From Patescibacteria group bacterium (GTDB lineage: Bacteria > Patescibacteriota > Patescibacteriia > JAXHNJ01), in NCBI GenBank assembly GCA_041649715.1, contig JBAZMP010000002.1, forward strand, positions 132,964-196,963: a DNA stretch of 64,000 nucleotides, read 5' to 3'. Below the pieces are notes generated by a model. It was not told the origin of the DNA. It saw nothing but the letters and a program-made list of their open reading frames with translations, and searched no databases. The position numbers were made by a program, and so were the translations under genes. Below are positions 6,574 through 58,294 of this stretch, one piece after another; the stretch's first letter is position 1; the number at the start of each line of letters is the position of its first letter.

Positions 6574-7836
6574 ATGAACCGTTATTTTTTCATCCTCGGC
6601 CGCAATCAAGCCTTGTCTCTGGCGGAAAGCGCCGCTTTTTTTAGCCGCGAACAGATGGTTTTTAATCCGCTTTATTTAGGCCGGGATTTTTTGGTCTGGG
6701 AGACGGAAAATAAAATTGATTTGAAGGCACTGAATAACCGGTTGGGAGGAGTGATTAAAGCCGGAGAAATATGGGCGGAAAGGCCGAAAAAGCCGGATCT
6801 GCTCGCCGACCTTTCCGAAGCCCTGGGCTTTTCCACTATCAGTAAATTTCTGCCTGTCGGCGCAGAAAAATTATTCTTAGGCTTTAGTCTGTATTTTGAC
6901 GAGGGCAAGAGCTTCATTTATCTGCAAAAAGGCTTGGAAAGGCATTTTTTAAGCCTAAAAAAAGAGATAAAGGAAACCGGCCAAAAATTGCGCTTGGTCA
7001 CTTCGCGCGGCCAGACTCTTTCTTCCGTGGTGGTGAAGAAAAATAAATTATTGACGGCCGGGGCGGAAATCGTCATTTTTGTCACACCCGAAAAAATGTT
7101 TATCGGGAAAACTTCAAGCGTCCAAGATTTTGAGGGTTATAGTTTCCGGGATTTCCAGCGGCCCGGACGGGATATGCGGATCGGTTTGATGCCGCCAAAA
7201 GTTGCCCAAATCATGGTAAATTTAGCGCAGGCCCGGGAAAGTGAGGTCATCTTGGATCCTTTTGCCGGCTGCGGCACGATTTTGCAGGAAGCGATACTCT
7301 TGGGCTATAAAAATTTGGTCGGTTCGGATAATAACCCGCGGGCCTTAAGCCAGACCCGGCAGAATTTAGAATGGTTATGCAGAAATTATAAGATTGACGA
7401 GAAAAAAATCAATGTAAAATTAATGCCGATCGATGTCCGGCAGATATACAAAGACTTAAGCCCCAATTCAGTGGACACAATTGTGACCGAACCATATCTG
7501 GGGCCGGCGCTTGATGATCGACCGGGGGAAGGCAAAATAAGAATGGTGGCGGCTAATCTGAGCCAGCTTTACTTGGATTTTTTCACCGCCATTAAAAGAG
7601 TTTTGAAACCCGGCGGCAAAATAGTCATGATCTGGCCGGTTTTCCGCACTCCGGCCGGCAAGCAGTTTTTGCCGATCTTGGAAAAAGTTCTGGCCAAGGG
7701 TTTTGAAAAAATCAACCTGATTCCCGAAGTTTTTAAGGCCAACGATCTGGAGGAACTAACAAGCCGGGGCTCGATTCTATATTCCCGGGAAGACCAGAAT
7801 GTTTTAAGGGAAATTTTCGTTTTTAAAAATGTTTAG
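6574..7836 (+). CDS. SAM-dependent RNA (guanine-N2) methyltransferase, Trm11/RlmL-like, with an N-terminal RNA-binding region
   Basis: Motif I (VLDPFAGCGTILQEA) and a DPPY-like motif IV (VTEPYLGP). Confidence 0.6.
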   Translation: MNRYFFILGRNQALSLAESAAFFSREQMVFNPLYLGRDFLVWETENKIDLKALNNRLGGVIKAGEIWAERPKKPDLLADLSEALGFSTISKFLPVGAEKLFLGFSLYFDEGKSFIYLQKGLERHFLSLKKEIKETGQKLRLVTSRGQTLSSVVVKKNKLLTAGAEIVIFVTPEKMFIGKTSSVQDFEGYSFRDFQRPGRDMRIGLMPPKVAQIMVNLAQARESEVILDPFAGCGTILQEAILLGYKNLVGSDNNPRALSQTRQNLEWLCRNYKIDEKKINVKLMPIDVRQIYKDLSPNSVDTIVTEPYLGPALDDRPGEGKIRMVAANLSQLYLDFFTAIKRVLKPGGKIVMIWPVFRTPAGKQFLPILEKVLAKGFEKINLIPEVFKANDLEELTSRGSILYSREDQNVLREIFVFKNV

Positions 7837-8890
7837 AAAAATAAGGCATTTTTGGGTATTTAGCGCCATTTTAGTCGTGGTTGGCGTATTTTTTATTTTT
7901 TATTTTCAGGCGATCGGGGCCCTGAATACGGAGTCAAATTTTAGGGCTGGGGTCGTAAAAATCCCGGAAGAATCCGTTAAGGAAACGTCCGTAATTTTCG
8001 GGGGCGATATCATGCTCGCGCGGACCGTGGAACAAAAGATATTGGCGACCGGGGATTACGCCCTGCCTTTCCGGAAAATATATCAGGAATTTAAAAAAGC
8101 CGATCTGGCCCTTGCTAATTTGGAGTCGCCTTTTTCAGACGGCGGTTCGGCGACCCCGAACGGCAGCACGGTATTCCGGGCCCTGCCCAGAACAATAGAG
8201 AGTTTAAAATTAGCCGGCCTCGATGCGGTTACCTTAGCGAACAACCATTTTGGCGATCAGGGCAATAAAGGCAAACTTTACACCTTTAAGCATTTAACCG
8301 ATAACGGTATTGAATATTGCGGAGCGGGCAATGATTATGACGAAGCGCATACGCCGGTGATTAAAGAGGTTAATGAGATCAAGATCGGTTTTTTGGGCTA
8401 CGGATATCCGGAAACGATGTATGTGGCAACCGGCGATTCGCCGGGGCTCGCCAATATGGATATTGAACAGATGAAAAAAGATATTGAGCGATTAAGCGAT
8501 TCAGCGGACTTTATTGTGGTGACCATGCACGCTGGCGCGGAATACACGCATACACCCGGCAAATCGCAAATCGCATTTTCGCATGCGGCTATAGACGCCG
8601 GCGCCAATTTAGTGATTGGTCATCATCCCCACGTGGTTCAATCAACGGAAAAATATAAAGACGGCTATATTATTTACAGCTTGGGCAATCTGGTTTTTGA
8701 CCAGATGTGGTCAGAGGAAACCCAGCAGGGAGTCGTCGTTAAAGTGATTCTTTCTGATAATAAACTAAAATCAATAGAATTTAAACCCATCCATATTTAC
8801 GATTATAATCAGCCGGATTGGGTCGTCGGCAGCGAAGCGGAAAAGATTTTAGGGGATATGGGATTAAACTCGTTTACCCTGTCATTCTGA
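7829..8890 (+). CDS. CapA/PGA_cap-family metallophosphatase (poly-gamma-glutamate capsule synthesis-like)
   Basis: GGDIMLAR, ANLESP and TLANNHFGD motifs, plus a signal/TM N-terminus. Confidence 0.7.
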   Translation: MFRKIRHFWVFSAILVVVGVFFIFYFQAIGALNTESNFRAGVVKIPEESVKETSVIFGGDIMLARTVEQKILATGDYALPFRKIYQEFKKADLALANLESPFSDGGSATPNGSTVFRALPRTIESLKLAGLDAVTLANNHFGDQGNKGKLYTFKHLTDNGIEYCGAGNDYDEAHTPVIKEVNEIKIGFLGYGYPETMYVATGDSPGLANMDIEQMKKDIERLSDSADFIVVTMHAGAEYTHTPGKSQIAFSHAAIDAGANLVIGHHPHVVQSTEKYKDGYIIYSLGNLVFDQMWSEETQQGVVVKVILSDNKLKSIEFKPIHIYDYNQPDWVVGSEAEKILGDMGLNSFTLSF

Positions 8891-13594: not shown

Positions 13595-14836
13595 TTATAT
13601 TAATTCTGGATAAAGCGGATATTTTTCGGTTAAATCGTGAACTATTTTTAGCACTTCTTTTTTAACCGTATCATCGGTTGGATTCTTTAAAACCCTGGCG
13701 ATCAATTTTCCGATAATTACCATATCGTCTTCTTTAAACCCGCGGGTCGTTAAAGCCGGTGTACCTAATCTAATACCAGAAGGATCCAGAGGTTTTCTCG
13801 GATCATCGGGGATCATATTTTTGTTGACCGTAATTTTAACCGAGTCCAGTAGCTCTTGGGTTTGTTTGCCGGCCAGGCCAAAAGGCGTGACGTCGGTTAA
13901 GATTAAGTGATTCTCGGTCGTGCCGAAACAAATTTTAAAACCCTCATTTTTTAAGGTGTCACAAAGAACTTTAGCGTTCTTTTTGACTTGTCTGGCATAT
14001 TCTTTGAATTCCGGCTGCAAAGCTTCTTTAAAAGCCACGGCTTTGGCGGCGATATTGTGCTCGTGCGGCCCGCCCTGAAAACCGGGAAACACGGCTTTAT
14101 CAATGGCGCTGGCATATTTTTCTTTGCACATGATCAGGCCGCCTCTGGGGCCGCGCAAGGTTTTATGAGTGGTGGTCGTTATTACATCGAAAATCGGCAC
14201 GGGATTGTTCATTTCTCCGGCCGCGATCAAGCCGGCGATATGGGCGACATCTGCCATGGTAATGGCGCCTATTTCATCCGCGATTTCCTTGAATTTTTTA
14301 TAATCCAAATCCCGAGAATAGGCGGAGTAGCCGCACAAAATTATTTTTGGCTTATATTCATGCGCTAATTTTCTGACCATTCCGAAATCGATCAAGCCTT
14401 CCGGCGTGGTCTTGTACCTCACGAATTTAAAAAGTTTGGCCATATAAGTCACGGGGTGGCCGTGCGTCAAATGTCCGCCGTGGGAGAGGTCCATGCCCAA
14501 AACCGTGTCGCCGGGCGAAAGTAAGGCGAAATAAACCGCCACGTTGGCCGGCGCTCCGGAGAGCGGCTGGACATTGACGTGCTCCGCGCCAAAAAGTTTT
14601 TTCGCCCGATCAATGGCGATCTGTTCCACCGTATCCACATTTTCCGTGCCGCCGTAATATCTTTTGCCGGGGTAGCCTTCGGAGTATTTATTGGTCAAAA
14701 CGCTGCCCAGAGCCTCCAAGACGGCCAGGGAAACGAAATTTTCCGAAGGGATCATTTCCAGGCCTTCTTGTTGGCGTTTGATTTCGGCCGCGATGGCGCG
14801 GGCAATTTCCTTATCTTGTTTTTCCAGCTGTTTCAT
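13595..14836 (-). CDS. glyA: Serine hydroxymethyltransferase
   Basis: [10 protein letters not shown] start and the PLP-lysine region [14 protein letters not shown]. Confidence 0.95.
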
Positions 14837-14876
14837 AAACGTGATTATTTTAGCACAAAAAGCCAGATTTTACGAG

Positions 14877-14905
14877 TTGACAAGGAATAATATCCATGAT
14901 AAAAA
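14877..14905 (+). promoter_or_regulatory. Putative sigma70 promoter (TTGACA, 17-nt spacer, TAAAAA) ahead of the 14961 gene
   Basis: Hexamers read directly from the sequence. Confidence 0.35.
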
Positions 14906-14960
14906 GATGACAAATATCAAAGTCGCTCATTAGCAACGAAACGAAAAAGGAGGGGAAATA

Positions 14961-15347
14961 ATGGCGCAAGAAAAACGCGTCTTGGTTGTTTGTCATGTGG
15001 AAGCCGTGCTTTGGCCGATAGTCAGAAGATACAAAGAAGCGGGCTGGCAGGTGCAAGCGGCGAGTAATTTGCCTTCCGGCATGAGGATTTTTGAGGCCAA
15101 TCCAATCGGGTTCGACCTGGTGATCATGGATGAAGATCATGGCTGCGAGAATGGTTCTTTCCGCGACGTGCTGGCTGGCCTGCGCGAGATCAGGTGTTTG
15201 AATGGCCAGTGCGTGGTTATTGCCATGACGACCATAGCCAGAAGCAAAGTGGAAGTCAGGGATCTGAAAGAATGGGTCAATAAGGTTATAGACAGAAAGT
15301 CTTGGCCCACTCTCGTTGCTCTGTCGGCGCAGTATTTCAAGAAATAA
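14961..15347 (+). CDS. Atypical CheY-like receiver-domain protein; the N-terminal Asp-Asp pair is replaced by Cys-His
   Basis: Strong AGGAGG Shine-Dalgarno. Receiver-like signatures RVLVVCHVE, DLVIMDED and VVIAMTT. Confidence 0.45.
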   Translation: MAQEKRVLVVCHVEAVLWPIVRRYKEAGWQVQAASNLPSGMRIFEANPIGFDLVIMDEDHGCENGSFRDVLAGLREIRCLNGQCVVIAMTTIARSKVEVRDLKEWVNKVIDRKSWPTLVALSAQYFKK

Positions 15348-15380
15348 TAATTGTTTACAAGATCCAAGGAGGTGAATCTG

Positions 15381-15752
15381 ATGGGAGAGGAATTCCGGTA
15401 TGAACTGCGGGTGCTTAGTGACACCGACTATAACGGTTTCGCCGAAGTGATGTTCTGGTACTTCGCGAATGGGGTTCAGTCGGCGACACACGCGAGCAGC
15501 CATTCGGTCAGACGCAAGTTTCCGTCGGGGACCCTTGTTCTCTGCCGCTTGAAAGCGGGCAAGGATAAAGATGGTCAACCCGGTTATTTCATGGCCGGTT
15601 TCGCCGAAGTCAAGCAGTCGGAGGCTAATGGCCGGCCGGTGGAATTCGGAGAAACGCTCAGTAATTCGGGTGTCGATGATTGGCAGCCGCCGGACAAGGA
15701 TACGCCGATCTTCGACTGTCGCACCAAAGGGGAGGCCAAGCAAATTCAATAG
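15381..15752 (+). CDS. Hypothetical protein (124 aa), co-transcribed with the receiver-like gene
   Basis: AGGAGG Shine-Dalgarno 8 nt upstream of the ATG. Confidence 0.45.
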   Translation: MGEEFRYELRVLSDTDYNGFAEVMFWYFANGVQSATHASSHSVRRKFPSGTLVLCRLKAGKDKDGQPGYFMAGFAEVKQSEANGRPVEFGETLSNSGVDDWQPPDKDTPIFDCRTKGEAKQIQ

Positions 15753-45898: not shown

Positions 45899-46247
45899 CT
45901 TGAGGGGACGCGGTTCGTTCAATCCCAAGAACGCCAAGCTGGACGGTAAGGGTCTGCCCATGCCGACCAAAGTGTCTTCCACCGAAGAATTTCTCGCCCT
46001 GATGGGTATCCGCACGAAAGGACCGGCCCACCGGCTGGTCGAACACGTCAAAGATCCGTGTGAAATCGATGAGGCCTATTGCCAGGAAGGAAAAAAGCTT
46101 TTTAGCACGACCGTGAATTTGTTTCATGAAGCCTGCGGTTGTCCGAAAAAAGCCGCCGAAGCGGCCCGCCGGCTGGTCCGCGTGGCCACCAACGATATGC
46201 CCGTAAGACGCGGCGTCTGGAGCAATATCGTCGGCCGGCCCGGCTGA
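45899..46247 (+). CDS. Hypothetical Cys-motif protein (~116 aa) from a TTG start
   Basis: AGGAGG Shine-Dalgarno 7 nt upstream of a TTG; a C...C...CGC pattern; GC-rich. Confidence 0.35.
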
Positions 46248-46274
46248 CAAGAATTTCAAAATTAGATCTTCGGT

Positions 46275-46305: not shown

Positions 46306-46384
46306 TTTTAGCCAAAAATATGTTATGGTATAATGCACTTGCAGAATGGAAAAATGAAGGTGGGCAGAGCGGAGGGTTCGCATA

Positions 46385-46475
46385 TCACCGCAAAGCGGGA
46401 CCCCCCCGCAATGCGGGGTGGGTGGTCTAGTGCGCTTGCTTGTCCCGCAAAGCGGGATGCCGCTCTGCGGCAGAG
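46385..46475 (+). repeat. tRNA-Ser 5'-portion fragment (D-arm to anticodon-stem 5' side) embedded in three copies of a cccgcaa(a/t)gcggg mini-hairpin plus a gccgctctgcggc hairpin
   Basis: ggtggtctagtgcgcttgcttg at 46420-46442 duplicates 46570-46591 of the intact tRNA-Ser. Confidence 0.6.
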
Positions 46476-46557
46476 AGCCGGAAAATAAGCATATGTATTC
46501 TGTCTGCATATAAAAGTTATAAAGGCGGTTTGCAATTTAATAAGTAGCGGAAAGAAC

Positions 46558-46644
46558 GGAGAGGTCGCATAGTGGTCTAGTGCGCTTGCTTGGAGAGCAA
46601 GTAGACCTTCACCGGTCTCGCGAGTTCAAATCTCGCCCTCTCCG
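46558..46644 (+). tRNA. tRNA-Ser (anticodon GGA), type II
   Basis: Acceptor ggagagg/cctctcc, anticodon stem cttgc/gcaag with loop ttGGAga, long variable arm, T-arm gcgag-ttcaaat-ctcgc. No CCA encoded. Confidence 0.85.
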
Positions 46645-46752
46645 TTCTTCCCGCTACAATCTTGCCCTCTCCGCCAATTATTTTAAATAAAAAAATCGCA
46701 AAAGTCTTGCATTTTTCTGGCGGGTGTTTGTTAAGATAAATTAAGTCGCAAT

Positions 46753-47910
46753 TTGATTGGTATGAATTTCTATGACCTTAGGAATAAAATAGGCCGCTAT
46801 AAAAAATTTTCCCTTGTTACGACACTAGAAAAAAGCTCTGTAGTAAACGAAGCCTATCCGGGCCAATTTAATCTTAGCTTCACTGAATCAAAATGGCTGG
46901 ATAAATTTGACAATTATATAGATGTAAATGAAGATTTTTTCTTTAGTACCATACAGCCCGTTATTAGATACAACGACTTCAAAAATCAAATCTTAACAAA
47001 TAAGACTGCGCACAAACATCTAGCGTTATTTGATATGGCAGATTTGGTCGGAGCAGGAGTTTTTGTTGATAAGAATTCGGGCAATAACTTTACAATACTT
47101 GAGATTCAAGAATTTATTAAATTATTTTTGGAGCTAAAAATTTCTCTCGACAGAGTATATGTTAGTAGCTTTGCCGGCGCGAAAGTAAATGAGGCTACAA
47201 GAGGGAAATATAAATTTGAAAAATTTATACCACCATTTGAATTCGGAAGAAATCAGTGGGTGAAAAACGGGATACCTTCAAAAAATATTATTCCCGATAA
47301 GTCTCGTGACACATTTCTAGCTCTTAATCTTTATGGAAGACCAACGCCCTGGGGTTATCGCAACGAAATTTATATTAAATCTTCCGCCGGCGAATTAATT
47401 GATATCGCTACGTTAGAACATTTAATTTGGTGCCCCGTTTTTAAAGACGGCGAGATTATTGATTTAGTTGACTATGAACATTTCGTAGGTTTGAATGTTA
47501 TTGGAGTCGAAAGGTTATGCATGATCATTAATGATTTCACTAATATTTCTCAATGTGAACATATTTATCCTCTAATCTTAGCGATTAAAAAAGTTTCATT
47601 AAATTACAATTACCATTCGGCTTTTACCGTTGTCGAGAGTGTGCGGGCGGTACATAGGATTATTGCGGATATCGACAAACCAAGCAATCTGTCAAAAACG
47701 CGTCATACAAAATTTAATGATTATTTAGAGGCTTTATACATTCATTTGAATATGCTTAAAATATCAGATAAGATGGGTGTGTTAGAGAAAATATTTGAAT
47801 TAAATGCGAAAATCAATCCGCATTATCCGGAATTACAAAGTGCGGCTAACAATGCTAAAAAAACAGTAGAAGCATATTTTGAGGTAAGATTTAAAAATAG
47901 GGATTGTTAA
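46753..47910 (+). CDS. Stand-alone, diverged paralogue of the alanyl-tRNA-synthetase catalytic core (class II aaRS, AlaRS N-domain only); AT-rich
   Basis: Colinear blocks matching the E. coli AlaRS N-domain from memory: TIQPVIR ~ SQRCVRA; KTAHKHLALFDMADLVGAG ~ TARHHTFFEMLGNFSFG; DRVYVSSF ~ ERLWVTVY; GIPSKNIIP ~ GIPRERIIR; VIGVERL ~ GMGLERI; RAVHRIIADIDKPSN ~ RACAFLIADGVMPSN. The gene stops before the tRNA-recognition, editing and C-Ala domains. Confidence 0.55.
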   Translation: MIGMNFYDLRNKIGRYKKFSLVTTLEKSSVVNEAYPGQFNLSFTESKWLDKFDNYIDVNEDFFFSTIQPVIRYNDFKNQILTNKTAHKHLALFDMADLVGAGVFVDKNSGNNFTILEIQEFIKLFLELKISLDRVYVSSFAGAKVNEATRGKYKFEKFIPPFEFGRNQWVKNGIPSKNIIPDKSRDTFLALNLYGRPTPWGYRNEIYIKSSAGELIDIATLEHLIWCPVFKDGEIIDLVDYEHFVGLNVIGVERLCMIINDFTNISQCEHIYPLILAIKKVSLNYNYHSAFTVVESVRAVHRIIADIDKPSNLSKTRHTKFNDYLEALYIHLNMLKISDKMGVLEKIFELNAKINPHYPELQSAANNAKKTVEAYFEVRFKNRDC

Positions 47911-47942: not shown

Positions 47943-49106
47943 ATGAGACAAGAATTTGAAACAGATTTAAGAGATTTCGGCCAGGTGGCCAAAGAAGAGT
48001 TAAATACGGAAGAAAAACTTTCAGGGGGCAACTTCGAGAGTTTGTCTGCCGTTTCACGCCAGGATGAAGCGGCCAAAAGGCAGCATACCTCCCGCGAAAC
48101 GCAGCGTGAGATTTATGATATCCAAAAAGAAAAGCAAAAGATAATGCAGGCCTTAAAGGAACAACTGGCATGTCTGGACAACCCTGAGGGCAGACTGGAG
48201 CGGGAAAGAGGCGAACGGACGGTTTCTTTTGACGAAGCAGAGGGTGTTTTCGTTTATCAAGATGACCGGGGCCGCCGGCAAAAAGCGACTTTCGGGGAAA
48301 TCATGACCGACATGGATTGGAATGTTCTTTACCACCTGGATAAAGATTCAGCGCCGCGGCCCATGGTAAAGAAATACCTGGTGGAAAGAGCCAAGGCAAA
48401 ATTGTCGGCTCTGCTGGATCTGCAGATCATCAAAAGCGAGTCCGGAAGCAGTGTGGTCCACGAAAAAAAACAACAGGCTTACCGCCGCATTGAAATGGAC
48501 AGACAAAGCGGGGCGGTCAAGGAAAGCTGGGGCTTGGTTTCCGAGTTGATCGTCAAGGACTTTTTAAAAAAATTGAGCCTGGACAAGGATTTCCCTTTCA
48601 AGATCAAGGAAGCGGATGTTTTTCAGGACGTGGAGGAAAAAATCGATTTCATCATCCACCTAGAGAAGAAAAAACGGGGCGTTAACGTGGAGACCGACGA
48701 AAAAGCCAAGGATATCGGCATCCAGTTCACCGTTTCCCCGGAGGTGGCGCCGCACAAGGAGCAACAGCTGCAAAAAGCCAGGCAGGATGTCAAAAAGCAA
48801 GGAGAACGCATTGACGATATCGTCTTGGTCGTCTTTCCCCTGAAAATGGCCAGCGCCTTGCAGCGGCAATGGCGGCACGAGGGCCGCCCGGCCGGCGGGC
48901 CGGATAAATTTTTGTACCGGCAGGAGGCAGAAAAGCTCTTCAAGGAATTGCTGCAGGGCGTGCTTAAACCCGAGGAAATTGCCCAATATTGGGCGACTGT
49001 CCAGAACAATTGGGAAGAAGACCCGCAAATTATCGAGGAAAGAAAAACGCAGCGGGCCAGACACCAAATGAGTCAGCAAGCCTTAAAAAATAAAAATCAG
49101 CAGTGA
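47943..49106 (+). CDS. Hypothetical charged / coiled-coil protein (387 aa)
   Basis: No recognisable motif; Glu/Lys/Arg-rich. Confidence 0.35.
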   Translation: MRQEFETDLRDFGQVAKEELNTEEKLSGGNFESLSAVSRQDEAAKRQHTSRETQREIYDIQKEKQKIMQALKEQLACLDNPEGRLERERGERTVSFDEAEGVFVYQDDRGRRQKATFGEIMTDMDWNVLYHLDKDSAPRPMVKKYLVERAKAKLSALLDLQIIKSESGSSVVHEKKQQAYRRIEMDRQSGAVKESWGLVSELIVKDFLKKLSLDKDFPFKIKEADVFQDVEEKIDFIIHLEKKKRGVNVETDEKAKDIGIQFTVSPEVAPHKEQQLQKARQDVKKQGERIDDIVLVVFPLKMASALQRQWRHEGRPAGGPDKFLYRQEAEKLFKELLQGVLKPEEIAQYWATVQNNWEEDPQIIEERKTQRARHQMSQQALKNKNQQ

Positions 49107-56910: not shown

Positions 56911-56936
56911 TAATTAGTACCCAAAGCTCCGCGATA

Positions 56937-57008
56937 GCTCAATGGTAGAGCAACCGGCTGTTAACCGGTAGGTTGTCGGTCCGAATCCGACTCGCGGAGC
57001 TTTGGGTA
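56937..57008 (+). tRNA. tRNA-Asn-like gene (anticodon GTT) with an atypical T-loop (UCCGAAU: C at position 55)
   Basis: Cloverleaf tccgcga / ta / gctc-aatggta-gagc / accgg-ctGTTaa-ccggt / aggtt / gtcgg-tccgaat-ccgac / tcgcgga-g. U1-A72 as in E. coli tRNA-Asn. Confidence 0.55.
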
Positions 57009-57970: not shown

Positions 57971-58043
57971 TCTCCTGTAGTTTAATTGGTAAAACGCTGC
58001 ACTGTTAATGCAGAGATTGGAGGTTCGAGTCCTCCTGGGAGAG
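57971..58043 (+). tRNA. tRNA-Asn (anticodon GTT), canonical
   Basis: tctcctg / ta / gttt-aattggta-aaac / g / ctgca-ctGTTaa-tgcag / agatt / ggagg-ttcgagt-cctcc / tgggaga-g. Very close to E. coli tRNA-Asn. Confidence 0.85.
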
Positions 58044-58294
58044 CTGGGATAATCATTGTAGCACTGCTTGTCCCGTAGGAACAGAAAGCGACTTACGGGA
58101 TTAATGCGGAGACCGCTGGTTCGAATCCAGCCCCCTGAGCGCGGCGCCAGTGTTTCGTCTGTCCGTCGAAACCCTGAAAGGGTGAAGGCGGAAGCCCACC
58201 TGGAGGAGCCAAATATTATTTAAATATTTGGTAGAAAAGAAAAACGCCCCACGAAGCGACAATTGTTTTGTGCTTTGTCGGGCGTGTACTGAGA

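What the first reader, a model, noticed from the sequence alone, without database searches (positions are those of the whole stretch)
46753..47910. Stand-alone, highly diverged alanyl-tRNA-synthetase catalytic-core paralogue next to tRNA-Ser
The 385-aa AT-rich protein is colinear with the AlaRS aminoacylation domain (blocks listed in the feature evidence). It lacks the tRNA-recognition, editing and C-Ala domains entirely, and it replaces the conserved Gly-rich GDTGPCGPC loop with YGRPTPWGY. It lies directly downstream of tRNA-Ser(GGA) and of a tRNA-Ser fragment, in a compositionally foreign island. Truncated class II aaRS cores are known to have been recruited as amino-acid:carrier-protein ligases, tRNA-dependent transferases or toxin/immunity components. 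An AlaRS-core paralogue of this kind is not something I recognise as described.
Basis: partly seen in the sequence, partly recalled or inferred. Interest (0 to 1): 0.75.

Follow-up and report, generated by a model that had tools for sequence, protein, structure and literature searches.

The report
AlaRS-derived enzyme linked to odd tRNAs
This gene encodes a shortened, heavily altered copy of the enzyme that normally loads alanine onto tRNA; it is not the cell's working alanine enzyme, and in related ultra-small bacteria and archaea it sits next to its own peculiar tRNA-like genes, which suggests an undescribed enzyme-tRNA pair.

Summary
The ORF is real (46753/46762..47910, +). Its kinship to alanyl-tRNA synthetase (AlaRS) holds up: profile-profile E = 7e-19, and an AF2 model (pLDDT 96.7) matches AlaRS catalytic fragments at E ~1e-17, TM ~0.76. 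The protein keeps most of the helical tRNA-recognition domain, since it aligns to AlaRS residues 1-373. It lacks only that domain's tail, the editing domain and C-Ala.

It belongs to a small, unannotated family in Patescibacteria and DPANN archaea. It is not the housekeeping AlaRS. The family is rare (51 of 185,579 species genomes). One Pacearchaeota contig carries it alongside a complete 597-aa AlaRS. The Asp that anchors the alanine amino group is hydrophobic in all 59 members. The ATP-binding motifs stay invariant.

Across 129 loci, 33 tRNA genes lie within 300 nt, all on the gene's strand. They are mostly anticodon UAU or UAC. Many lack G18G19 and the T-loop TΨC, or have non-decoding anticodon arms. 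None of 32 distant tRNAs does. A TrmB-like regulator is often adjacent, and sometimes fused.

The window copy has only a canonical tRNA-Ser upstream.

Best reading: an AlaRS-derived ligase working on dedicated tRNA-like RNAs. Its substrate is unknown.

The parts
46762..47910 (+). AlaRS-like gene (382 aa from the ATG; the ORF opens at a TTG at 46753). It belongs to an unannotated family found in Patescibacteria and DPANN.
46762..47529 (+). Class II aminoacylation core (residues ~4-259), homologous to AlaRS residues ~1-250.
   Evidence: hhalign and Foldseek; secondary structure
46966..46968 (+). Arg72, the motif-2 arginine (E. coli AlaRS Arg69 equivalent). It is invariant in 59/59 members.
47176..47238 (+). 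Family-specific insertion (residues 142-162, GG.V..T.GKY.F..IP.D) that is absent from AlaRS.
   Evidence: gap in the hhalign alignments; column profiles
47338..47370 (+). RPTPWGYRNEI signature, which replaces the AlaRS GDTGPCGPC(S/T)EI loop. W200, G201, Y202, R203 and E205 are invariant.
47491..47493 (+). Leu247, the position opposite AlaRS Asp235 (the alpha-amino anchor). It is I/V/L/G/F in the family and never acidic.
   Evidence: HMMER alignment; column profile; role of Asp235 from PMC12143591
47503..47514 (+). Motif 3, G251-V-E253-R254, invariant in the family (AlaRS GLER).
47530..47907 (+). Helical domain (residues ~260-385), equivalent to the AlaRS tRNA-recognition ('ATL') domain up to about residue 373. 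It has S314 in place of Asn303, and the segment that would hold Asp400 is absent.
46557..46645 (+). Canonical tRNA-Ser(GGA) on the same strand, 108-117 nt upstream. It has G18G19 and a TTC T-loop. The same arrangement is found in L003, L004, L020 and L054.
46422..46442 (+). Exact 21-nt duplicate of tRNA-Ser positions 46572-46592, lying inside a GC-rich branched structure.
46658..46673 (+). 16-nt near-duplicate (94%) of the tRNA-Ser 3' end (46629-46644).

Best explanation
The gene encodes a non-housekeeping descendant of alanyl-tRNA synthetase. It keeps the class II adenylate-forming core and the acceptor-stem-binding helical domain, but its amino-acid pocket has been rebuilt.

The most likely mechanism has three steps. 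First, the enzyme binds ATP as AlaRS does. This is inferred from conservation: the motif-2 Arg, the adenine-stacking Phe93, E205 and motif-3 GxER are all invariant. Second, it activates a carboxylate that is not bound the way AlaRS binds alanine. The sequence shows that the Asp235 equivalent is hydrophobic, that Trp170 has no conserved equivalent in a shortened loop, and that new invariant residues appear (D217, E222, W200, Y202, R203). Third, it transfers that group to the 3' end of a tRNA or tRNA-like RNA that it recognises by the acceptor stem alone. This step is inferred. The protein has no anticodon-binding, editing or elbow-binding (C-Ala) module.

In related subfamilies the partner RNA is encoded right next to the gene. 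These are dedicated tRNA(UAU/UAC)-like and Leu-like genes with an N1-GGGG acceptor stem, a frequent G5.U68 wobble and A73. Their elbows are degenerate, and some have anticodon arms that cannot decode. A divergently transcribed TrmB-family regulator probably controls the module.

The window's own copy belongs to a sister subfamily. It lies behind a canonical tRNA-Ser(GGA), and no dedicated tRNA-like gene is present within the 64 kb. Its RNA partner, if it has one, is either encoded elsewhere or is an ordinary tRNA.

Whether the charged RNA feeds the ribosome (NUA codons) or a non-ribosomal acyl transfer is not resolved.
For: Homology and architecture:
- The family profile hits AlaRS in the PDB.
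- hhalign aligns residues 2-385 to AlaRS 1-373, prob 99.2%, E 7e-19.
- The AF2 model has pLDDT 96.7, and its top 27 Foldseek hits are all AlaRS fragments, TM 0.71-0.77.

ATP motifs are invariant, and Asp235 is replaced by a hydrophobic residue in 59/59 members. The role of Asp235 comes from PMC12143591.

Not the housekeeping AlaRS:
- 51 loci in 185,579 species genomes.
- 523 clusters among 1.84 billion representatives.
- A complete small-AlaRS lies on the same contig as a family member in L021.

tRNA linkage:
- First locus set: 12/49 family genes against 30/433 control ORFs have a tRNA within 300 nt, p = 3.5e-4.
- Combined 129 loci: 33 tRNAs within 300 nt, all on the same strand.
- 19/33 near tRNAs have UAN anticodons, against 1/32 distant ones.
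- 13/33 near tRNAs lack GG in the D-loop against 0/32, and 10 have a TGC T-loop against 0.
- 15 of the 16 tRNA(UAU) genes in 1.16 Mb lie within 1.8 kb of the family gene, including archaeal intron-containing ones.
- Extra tRNA-like genes missed by ARAGORN were found by a covariance model in L008, L023, L025 and L049, and the pattern was replicated in metagenome loci.
- The stems covary: 94.7% of cells paired against ~50% in slid controls, with 9 pairs showing double changes.
- Several anticodon arms are non-decoding, and several loops violate U33/R37.
- In L027 the flanking tRNA(UAU) differs in acceptor stem and elbow from the canonical tRNA-Ile(UAU) 4 kb away.
- The linkage persists at 23-50% protein identity while the flanking protein-coding genes differ.

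TrmB partner: present in ~22/52 loci, and its C-terminal domain is fused to the enzyme in the 523-543-aa members.
Against: - There is no biochemical evidence at all. Substrate and acceptor are both inferred.
- The window copy and its 81% ortholog L004 have no dedicated tRNA-like gene nearby, even with unfiltered covariance-model searches.
- The largest (DPANN) subfamily of 65 loci has essentially none adjacent.
- Pocket mapping rests on sequence alignment, which is ambiguous around the strand at 215-231. I could not superpose coordinates.
- Same-strand adjacency is partly expected in genomes with strong strand bias.
- Loci are not phylogenetically independent; there are roughly 9 or more lineages at below 60% identity.
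- tRNA genes are known integration hot-spots, and the gene looks horizontally acquired.
- The flanking anticodons (NUA) match codons over-used by this AT-rich gene.
- Conserved CUUAUAC anticodon loops are unexpected for an enzyme that ignores the anticodon.
Confidence: 0.5

Rival explanations
1. It is an aminoacyl-tRNA-dependent transferase like AcmF. The host's IleRS, ValRS and LeuRS would charge the dedicated tRNA-like RNAs. The AlaRS-like protein would bind their acceptor end and pass the amino acid to a small molecule or a cell-envelope precursor, without forming an adenylate itself.
For: AcmF has the same two-domain architecture and is a proven Ala-tRNA-dependent transferase. The Ile/Val-like tRNA-likes keep UAU/UAC anticodon loops, which IleRS and ValRS read. 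The Leu-like ones, whose synthetase ignores the anticodon, have aberrant loops. The alpha-amino anchor Asp is lost, as in AcmF where the corresponding residue is changed. Degenerate elbows resemble the staphylococcal non-proteinogenic tRNAGly used for cell-wall bridges. One homologue is inserted between mraY and murD, and several lie by Wzy, flippase or glycosyltransferase genes.
Against: AcmF lost most ATP-binding residues. This family keeps the motif-2 Arg, Phe93, E205 and motif-3 GxER invariant in 59/59 members. No acceptor-substrate gene, biosynthetic cluster or Fem/MprF-type partner is conserved nearby. Envelope-gene neighbours are common in CPR genomes anyway, and this association was not tested statistically.
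Confidence: 0.2
2. It is a tRNA-independent ligase or other repurposed enzyme, comparable to AsnA or the SerRS-like amino-acid:carrier-protein ligases. On this view the tRNA neighbours are incidental: scars and hitch-hikers of horizontal insertion at tRNA genes, or 'helper' tRNAs for the NUA codons of an AT-rich imported gene.
For: The gene is compositionally foreign in GC-richer hosts: GC3 0.31 against 0.55-0.60 in the window, and lower than its flanks in 32/45 loci. tRNA-fragment duplications flank the window's tRNA-Ser. The window gene over-uses ATA, GTA, TTA and CTA. The big DPANN subfamily and the Rokubacteria/Deltaproteobacteria homologues have no adjacent tRNA, and the latter sit in glycosyltransferase or CapK-like clusters and diverge after residue ~307.
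Against: Retention of the acceptor-stem-binding domain, with AlaRS-conserved residues, argues for an RNA substrate. Non-canonical elbows occur only next to the family gene (13/33 against 0/32), the stems covary, and linkage survives deep divergence. Most hosts that carry the tRNA-likes are themselves AT-rich (flank GC 0.32-0.39) and do not need helper tRNAs; L027 already has a canonical tRNA-Ile(UAU). tRNAs with loops of 3-6 nt cannot help decoding.
Confidence: 0.2
3. It is the organism's real AlaRS, either a mini-AlaRS or the catalytic subunit of a split enzyme, with the editing and C-Ala functions supplied in trans.
For: The viral mini-AlaRS shows that a catalytic domain plus a tRNA-recognition domain can be a working AlaRS. 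No other alaS lies in the 64-kb window. N. equitans has a split AlaRS (from memory; a 'secondary fragmentation' of AlaRS is mentioned).
Against: The Asp235 equivalent is hydrophobic in every member. Asn303 is not conserved and the Asp400 segment is absent. The family is present in well under 1% of CPR/DPANN species. L021 carries both the family gene and a complete small-AlaRS. The window protein does not reach any Pfam PF01411 score.
Confidence: 0.04

Closest known systems
Alanyl-tRNA synthetase catalytic fragment (E. coli AlaRS 1-441, PDB 3HXU; A. aeolicus 1RIQ; human 4XEM/5KNN)
   Same: Same fold over the whole length (TM 0.71-0.77). It shares the class II motifs 2 and 3, the FEM adenine-stacking segment, and the helical acceptor-stem domain with conserved D/E-x-x-R...D...R residues.
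   Different: The Asp235 alpha-amino anchor is replaced by I/V/L. The GPCGPC loop is replaced by PWGYRNE. Trp170 has no conserved equivalent. A 20-residue insertion is present. Asn303 is not conserved. The last ~70 residues (including Asp400), the editing domain and C-Ala are absent. The family is rare and accessory rather than universal.
AcmF, the AlaRS-like Ala-tRNA-dependent transferase of ascamycin biosynthesis (Zheng et al. 2024; review PMC12945691)
   Same: A truncated AlaRS-like protein with only the aminoacylation and tRNA-recognition domains. The key alanine-activating residues are altered, and it is not a housekeeping synthetase.
   Different: AcmF lost most ATP-binding residues and sits in a Streptomyces nucleoside-sulfamate cluster with a resistant AlaRS (AcmD). 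This family keeps the ATP motifs, lives in CPR/DPANN with no such cluster, and is linked to its own tRNA-like genes. Direct sequence relatedness to AcmF was not tested.
Tupanvirus mini-AlaRS and CPR/DPANN/Asgard 'small-AlaRS'
   Same: Naturally shortened AlaRS architectures: catalytic + ATL, or catalytic + ATL + editing. The latter occurs in the same kinds of organisms, and an example was found in L021.
   Different: Those are bona fide alanine enzymes with canonical motifs. The L021 small-AlaRS has FFEMLGNWS, GPCGP and VDTGMGVER. The present family has none of the alanine-specific residues, and it co-exists with small-AlaRS.
PylRS-tRNAPyl (pylS-pylT)
   Same: A class II synthetase that ignores the anticodon and is gene-linked to a dedicated tRNA lacking G18G19, with an altered T-loop and a lengthened anticodon stem.
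   Different: tRNAPyl reads a stop codon, and the cassette includes pyrrolysine biosynthesis genes. Here the anticodons are sense (UAU/UAC) or the loops are non-decoding, no biosynthesis genes are linked, and the enzyme derives from AlaRS.
Non-proteinogenic tRNAGly of staphylococci (Fem-dependent cell-wall bridges), and the B. cereus pseudo-tRNA 'tRNA-Other'
   Same: Extra tRNA copies with the G18/G19 and U55/C56 elbow contacts lost, working outside translation.
   Different: Those are charged, if at all, by ordinary housekeeping-type synthetases and are not paired with a dedicated, remodelled synthetase paralogue.
GluQRS (YadB)
   Same: A truncated aaRS catalytic domain lacking the anticodon-binding domain. 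It still adenylates an amino acid and acts on a tRNA (from general knowledge).
   Different: It is a class I enzyme, it keeps its parental amino acid (Glu), it modifies queuosine in the anticodon of tRNA-Asp, and it has no dedicated tRNA gene.

Membership tests
Housekeeping alanyl-tRNA synthetase (AlaRS, class IIc) | Class IIc aminoacylation fold with the motif-2 Arg and motif-3 GxER | tested here: met
   Foldseek TM 0.71-0.77 to AlaRS fragments. R72, G251, E253 and R254 are invariant.
Housekeeping alanyl-tRNA synthetase (AlaRS, class IIc) | Conserved acidic residue (E. coli Asp235) that binds the alpha-amino group of alanine | tested here: not met
   HMMER aligns family column 247 (I26 V15 L7 G5 F3) to that Asp. 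The role of the residue comes from PMC12143591.
Housekeeping alanyl-tRNA synthetase (AlaRS, class IIc) | G3:U70 readers Asn303 and Asp400 in the tRNA-recognition domain | tested here: not met
   Position 314 is S/G. The alignment ends at AlaRS ~373, so the Asp400 segment is absent. The roles of these residues come from PMC10036535.
Housekeeping alanyl-tRNA synthetase (AlaRS, class IIc) | Editing domain (HxxxH...CxxxH) and C-Ala domain | tested here: not met
   The protein ends at residue 385, which corresponds to AlaRS ~373. In contrast, the L021 small-AlaRS has the editing domain.
Housekeeping alanyl-tRNA synthetase (AlaRS, class IIc) | Passes the curated family model (Pfam PF01411 gathering score) | tested here: not met
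   The window protein has no PF01411 hit at E <= 1. Only 14/59 family members match, best E 3.9e-10.
Housekeeping alanyl-tRNA synthetase (AlaRS, class IIc) | Universal and the sole alanine-charging enzyme of its genome | tested here: not met
   51 loci in 185,579 species genomes. It co-occurs with a complete AlaRS in L021. Not testable for the window's own genome, since only 64 kb is available and it holds no other alaS.
AcmF-type AlaRS-like aminoacyl-tRNA-dependent transferase | Only the aminoacylation and tRNA-recognition domains are present | tested here: met
   AcmF architecture
AcmF-type AlaRS-like aminoacyl-tRNA-dependent transferase | Loss of most ATP-binding and alanine-activation residues | tested here: not met
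   The ATP motifs are invariant. Only the amino-acid-binding residues have changed.
AcmF-type AlaRS-like aminoacyl-tRNA-dependent transferase | Sequence relatedness to AcmF, and location in a nucleoside-sulfamate biosynthetic cluster with a resistant AlaRS copy | not tested
No such cluster was seen in any of the loci inspected.
Dedicated synthetase-tRNA pair (PylRS/tRNAPyl type) | Synthetase gene genetically linked to a dedicated, structurally atypical tRNA gene | tested here: inconclusive
   Met for subfamilies 10 and 11 (16/19) and for others. Not met for the window copy or L004, which have only a canonical tRNA-Ser.
Dedicated synthetase-tRNA pair (PylRS/tRNAPyl type) | The enzyme charges that tRNA with a specific (non-canonical) amino acid, which is then used in decoding | not testable with these tools
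   This needs aminoacylation assays and proteomics.
TrmB-regulated module | Adjacent, divergently transcribed TrmB-family wHTH gene | tested here: inconclusive
   Present in ~22/52 loci (PF01978, E 4e-13 to 1e-16), with fusions of its C-terminal domain to the enzyme. No TrmB homologue is present in the window.

The most novel reading that the evidence does not exclude
The family and its flanking RNAs form a horizontally mobile, self-contained synthetase-tRNA pair shared between CPR bacteria and DPANN archaea. On this reading, an AlaRS-derived class II enzyme reads a GGGG/G5.U68/A73 acceptor stem and ignores the anticodon. It loads a non-alanine amino acid onto dedicated tRNA(UAU)/(UAC) molecules. 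This would give either a plug-in route for decoding AUA (and other NUA) codons, sense-codon recoding, or a private aminoacyl carrier for non-ribosomal chemistry.
Probability: 0.2. Interest if true: 0.95.

Novelty: new variant of a known kind. Interest (0 to 1): 0.78.

Why it matters
AlaRS is regarded as one of the most architecturally conserved synthetases, and repurposed copies of it are only just being recognised (AcmF in 2024).

This is a whole family of such copies. It has spread between ultra-small bacteria and archaea. It keeps the machinery for ATP use and acceptor-stem binding but has a rebuilt substrate pocket, and in several lineages it is wired to its own atypical tRNA genes.

If the enzyme charges those RNAs, it would be a natural synthetase-tRNA pair that does not depend on the anticodon. 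That bears on three questions: how AUA and other NUA codons are read in reduced genomes, whether sense-codon recoding occurs in CPR/DPANN, and whether new orthogonal pairs can be found for genetic-code engineering. If instead it feeds non-ribosomal chemistry, it would reveal a new tRNA-dependent pathway in organisms whose cell-surface biology is almost unknown.

Either way, the hypothesis can be tested directly with one recombinant protein and a few RNA transcripts.

Tried and rejected
1. Single-sequence searches of the window protein against Pfam, NCBIfam and PDB gave nothing. Only profiles and structure revealed the AlaRS relationship.
2. Known defence (PADLOC) and phage (PHROGs) libraries gave no hit. 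The family is absent from 2.9 million viral contigs. I therefore dropped the phage-borne and defence-system ideas.
3. I looked for a conserved protein partner by all-against-all clustering of neighbours in 54 loci. Only the TrmB-like gene recurs. Reading the neighbours in tRNA-bearing loci showed no Fem, MprF, L/F-transferase, cyclodipeptide synthase or PEARL-like gene.
4. It has no homologue in any related locus and no family hit. Rejected.
5. Split or mini housekeeping AlaRS: rejected, as explained under the rival explanations.
6. I searched for a dedicated tRNA-like gene in the window with ARAGORN (with and without introns), Rfam and a purpose-built covariance model with filters off. None was found apart from tRNA-Ser.
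7. Bacterial GlyRS alpha-subunit kinship: GlyRS alpha is a far weaker structural match (E ~2e-5, TM ~0.36) than AlaRS.
8. allo-tRNA identity for the odd tRNAs: they have a normal 7/5 acceptor/T arrangement, not 8/4 or 9/3.
9. I could not superpose the AF2 model on AlaRS-ligand structures, because coordinates are not exposed. Pocket residues other than the Asp235 equivalent therefore remain uncertain.
Full report
**The observation**

The window has a 385-codon ORF at 46753..47910 on the + strand. It opens with TTG. The ATG at 46762 gives the 382-aa protein that NCBI lists as 'hypothetical protein WC528_04110, Patescibacteria group bacterium', on a contig of about 255-262 kb.

tRNA-Ser(GGA) lies at 46557..46645 on the same strand. 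An exact 21-nt copy of part of that tRNA sits at 46422-46442, and a 16-nt near-copy of its 3' end at 46658-46673.

The gene is very AT-rich for this genome: GC 0.336 and GC3 0.306, against GC3 0.55-0.60 in GroEL, PpsA and the next ORF. The AT-rich stretch is only the gene itself. The ORFs on both sides are GC-rich, so 'island' overstates it.

**Is it AlaRS-like?**

Single-sequence searches saw nothing in Pfam, NCBIfam or PDB sequences.

A search of 5.8 billion proteins found 109 relatives of about 370-400 aa. All were unnamed or 'hypothetical', from Patescibacteria and DPANN archaea, and about a dozen carried precomputed PF01411 hits.

- A 59-member profile (A1) returned AlaRS as its top 12 PDB hits (15 of the 16 matches at E <= 1), best E 4.6e-6.
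- 14 of 59 members hit PF01411 on their own.
- hhalign against E. coli AlaRS plus a DPANN AlaRS gave prob 99.2%, E 7e-19, aligning residues 2-385 to AlaRS 1-373. It behaved as expected against PDB-derived alignments and against L021.
- The AF2 model is very confident, with pLDDT 96.7 and pTM 0.93.
- Its 27 best PDB matches are all AlaRS catalytic fragments (E ~1e-17, TM 0.71-0.77 over ~400 columns). The next class II enzymes fall to E ~1e-5 and TM ~0.3.

The homology claim is therefore confirmed.

The domain claim is not. Residues ~260-385 are five helices that align to the AlaRS tRNA-recognition ('ATL') domain and keep AlaRS-conserved residues (E295, R298, D306, R317). What is missing is the last ~70 residues of that domain, the editing domain and C-Ala.

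**What is kept and what is changed**

Invariant in all 59 members:
- R72, the motif-2 arginine.
- F93 within the (V/L)F(E/D)M segment, which corresponds to AlaRS FFEM.
- E205, D217, and G251/E253/R254 (motif 3).

E222 is present in 58 of 59 members. These residues are the ATP-handling core of a class II synthetase (general knowledge of the class).

In AlaRS, Asp235 anchors the alpha-amino group of Ala, Ser and Gly adenylates (PMC12143591). HMMER's own alignment places family column 247 opposite this Asp. That column is I/V/L/G/F and is never acidic.

Other changes:
- The GPCGPC loop becomes the invariant PWGYRNE.
- The position aligned to Trp170 is a gap in 45 of 59 members.
- A conserved 20-residue insertion (142-162) is new.
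- Of the two G3:U70 readers of E. coli AlaRS, Asn303 and Asp400 (PMC10036535), the first corresponds to S/G and the second lies beyond the end of the protein.

The alignment around strand 215-231 is ambiguous, and I could not superpose coordinates. Only the Asp235 statement is firm.

**Not the housekeeping AlaRS**

- A pattern scan of one genome for each of 185,579 species found 51 loci.
- An exhaustive HMM search of 1.84 billion cluster representatives found 523 proteins at E <= 1e-3. This makes it a small accessory family.
- No other alaS lies in the 64-kb window.
- In locus L021 (Pacearchaeota) the family gene (7650-8786) lies 5 kb from a complete 597-aa AlaRS (13830-15623). That AlaRS has every canonical motif (FFEMLGNWS, GPCGP, WNDVLMQ, VDTGMGVER, PSNTERGY) and an editing domain.
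- This 597-aa protein matches the 'small-AlaRS' described for CPR/DPANN (bioRxiv 10.1101/2023.05.29.542759).
- Some homologues are in large genomes, for example on a 4-Mb Rokubacteria contig.

**Genomic context of the family**

Protein neighbours are not conserved, with one exception. In about 22 of 52 loci a ~247-aa TrmB-family winged-helix gene lies immediately upstream and divergent (PF01978, E 4e-13 to 1e-16). Its C-terminal domain is fused to the enzyme in the 523-543-aa members.

Surface-glycan genes recur within 10 kb. One homologue is inserted between mraY and murD. I did not test this association statistically.

**The tRNA neighbours**

This was the unexpected result.

*Adjacency.* In the first locus set, 12 of 49 family genes had a tRNA within 300 nt, against 30 of 433 control ORFs (p = 3.5e-4). 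All 24 tRNAs more than 250 nt away had a normal elbow (GG in the D-loop, TTC-type T-loop). Of the 18 within 250 nt, 10 lacked GG and 8 had a TGC T-loop.

*More copies and replication.* A covariance model built from eight of these tRNAs found further copies that ARAGORN had missed, abutting the gene in L008, L023, L025 and L049. In an independent set of 80 metagenome loci it found the same arrangement in at least eleven more.

*Combined result over 129 loci:*
- 33 tRNAs lie within 300 nt, all on the gene's strand.
- Their anticodons are UAU 11, UAC 5, UAG/UAA 3, against one UAU among 32 distant tRNAs.
- Non-canonical D-loops: 13/33 near against 0/32 distant.
- TGC T-loops: 10 near against 0 distant.
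- With intron-aware scanning, 15 of the 16 tRNA(UAU) genes in 1.16 Mb lie within 1.8 kb of the family gene. These include intron-containing archaeal ones.

*Shared features.* The odd tRNAs share an N1-GGGG acceptor stem, A73 and often a G5.U68 wobble pair (GU 7, GC 5, AU 1). Their acceptor, D and T stems covary: 94.7% of cells are paired against ~50% in slid controls, and nine pairs show changes on both sides.

*Signs that they do not decode.* Several have anticodon arms of 8-11 bp with loops of 3-6 nt. Five of eight 73-nt copies break the U33/purine-37 rule. Leu-like long-arm copies have loops of 5, 6 or 13 nt. Rfam scores the 73-nt forms as tRNA and misses the aberrant ones.

*Distinct identity.* In L027 the flanking tRNA(UAU) differs in acceptor stem, D-loop and T-loop from the ordinary tRNA-Ile(UAU) 4 kb away.

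*Subfamily distribution.* Linkage is concentrated in subfamilies 10 and 11, where 16 of 19 members have it. It persists at 23-50% protein identity although the flanking protein genes differ. The large DPANN subfamily of 65 loci lacks adjacent copies.

**The window copy**

It forms its own small subfamily with L004 (81% identity), and this subfamily is nearest to subfamily 11. It shares the upstream canonical tRNA-Ser with L003, L004, L020 and L054. In L003 and L020 an odd tRNA also follows the gene.

No odd tRNA is present in the window or in L004, even with unfiltered searches. The surrounding genes are housekeeping: UvrA, GroES/EL, PpsA, rubrerythrins, DnaG and RpoD. There is no TrmB homologue in the window.

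**Interpretation**

Shown:
- It is an AlaRS-derived two-domain paralogue.
- It has intact ATP motifs and has lost the alanine anchor.
- It is rare, horizontally spread between CPR and DPANN, and compositionally foreign in GC-richer hosts.
- In several subfamilies it is tightly linked to atypical tRNA-like genes.

Inferred: it adenylates a substrate other than alanine and loads it on the acceptor end of those RNAs. AlaRS-type recognition needs only the acceptor stem, and the module that binds the tRNA elbow (C-Ala) is absent.

Precedents for parts of this picture:
- AcmF has the same architecture but is ATP-dead and acts as an Ala-tRNA-dependent transferase (PMC12945691).
- PylRS/tRNAPyl is a class II enzyme that ignores the anticodon and has a linked tRNA lacking G18G19 with a lengthened anticodon stem (PMC7609411).
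- Staphylococcal non-proteinogenic tRNAGly lack G18/G19 and U55/C56 (PMC4574755).
- The B. cereus pseudo-tRNA 'tRNA-Other' works outside translation (PMC3399842).

Open questions:
- What the substrate is.
- Whether the protein is a ligase or an AcmF-like transferase. The pattern 'Ile/Val-like copies keep their anticodon, Leu-like copies do not' fits charging by host IleRS, ValRS and LeuRS.
- Whether the RNAs feed the ribosome or another pathway.
- Whether the window copy has an RNA partner at all.

A mundane reading also cannot be excluded for part of the signal. tRNA genes are insertion hot-spots, and NUA 'helper' tRNAs could accompany an AT-rich imported gene. However, this reading does not explain the covarying but degenerate elbows, the non-decoding loops, or the presence of these RNAs in AT-rich hosts.

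**Novelty**

I found no description of this family. Every database name is 'hypothetical', and literature searches returned only AcmF, mini-AlaRS and small-AlaRS.

I rate it a new variant of a known kind, namely a repurposed synthetase paralogue. Its potentially new feature is a dedicated set of tRNA-like partners.

Noticed in passing
window 46350-46485: A GC-rich segment between the upstream ORF and tRNA-Ser folds into a branched structure closed by a 9-bp stem (GCAGAGCGG/CCGCUCUGC), z = -2.6. It contains three CCGCAAAGCGGGA-type hairpins and the 21-nt tRNA-Ser fragment. It has no Rfam match. It may be a decayed or rearranged tRNA-Ser copy, or an unknown small RNA.
   Followed up: partly
window 46544-46567 and 46634-46657: The leader and trailer of tRNA-Ser(GGA) are complementary for 24 nt (92%). 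This extends the acceptor stem by about 13 bp beyond the mature ends and could be a processing signal.
   Followed up: no
window 46246-46260 and 47947-47961: A 15-nt direct repeat (GACAAGAATTTCAAA, 14 of 15 matching) sits at the stop of the upstream ORF and again at the start of the 387-aa ORF. It brackets the 1.7-kb block holding the structured RNA, tRNA-Ser and the AlaRS-like gene. This could be chance, or the footprint of insertion of the whole block.
   Followed up: no
window 47943-49106: A 387-aa ORF rich in Glu, Lys and Gln (GC 0.50) lies 33 nt downstream. It has no Pfam, NCBIfam, PADLOC or PHROG match and no homologue in any related locus, so it is not a partner of the family.
   Followed up: yes
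window 56928-57000 and 57971-58044: Two tRNA-Asn(GTT) genes lie 1 kb apart. The first has a TCC T-loop in place of TTC. A 2026 paper reports group I introns in Patescibacteria tRNA-Asn genes (PMC13011429, seen).
   Followed up: no
L021 5100-15700: In this Pacearchaeota contig the family gene is clustered with a TrmB-like gene, a tRNA-splicing-endonuclease-like ORF, LeuRS and a 597-aa small-AlaRS. The neighbourhood is rich in translation genes.
   Followed up: partly
L001 8715-12537: A Patescibacteria homologue (P0018, gene GC 0.34 against flank 0.45) is inserted exactly between mraY and murD of a dcw cluster (mraY-X-murD-ftsW-murG-murC-murB).
   Followed up: partly
P0013, P0029, P0031, P0034 (523-543 aa): These are natural fusions of the AlaRS-like protein to the C-terminal (non-HTH) domain of the TrmB-like neighbour. 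They suggest that the two proteins interact physically or share a ligand. The fold of that domain was not determined.
   Followed up: partly
L008 2756-2833: The tRNA-like gene downstream of this family member carries both G3.U70 (the classical AlaRS identity pair) and G5.U68.
   Followed up: no
L031 1006-1101; L040 1132-1249; L083 2115-2242; L047 12205-12356: Several DPANN loci hold intron-containing tRNAs. Three or four of them are tRNA-Ile(UAU) genes within 1-1.8 kb of the family gene.
   Followed up: partly
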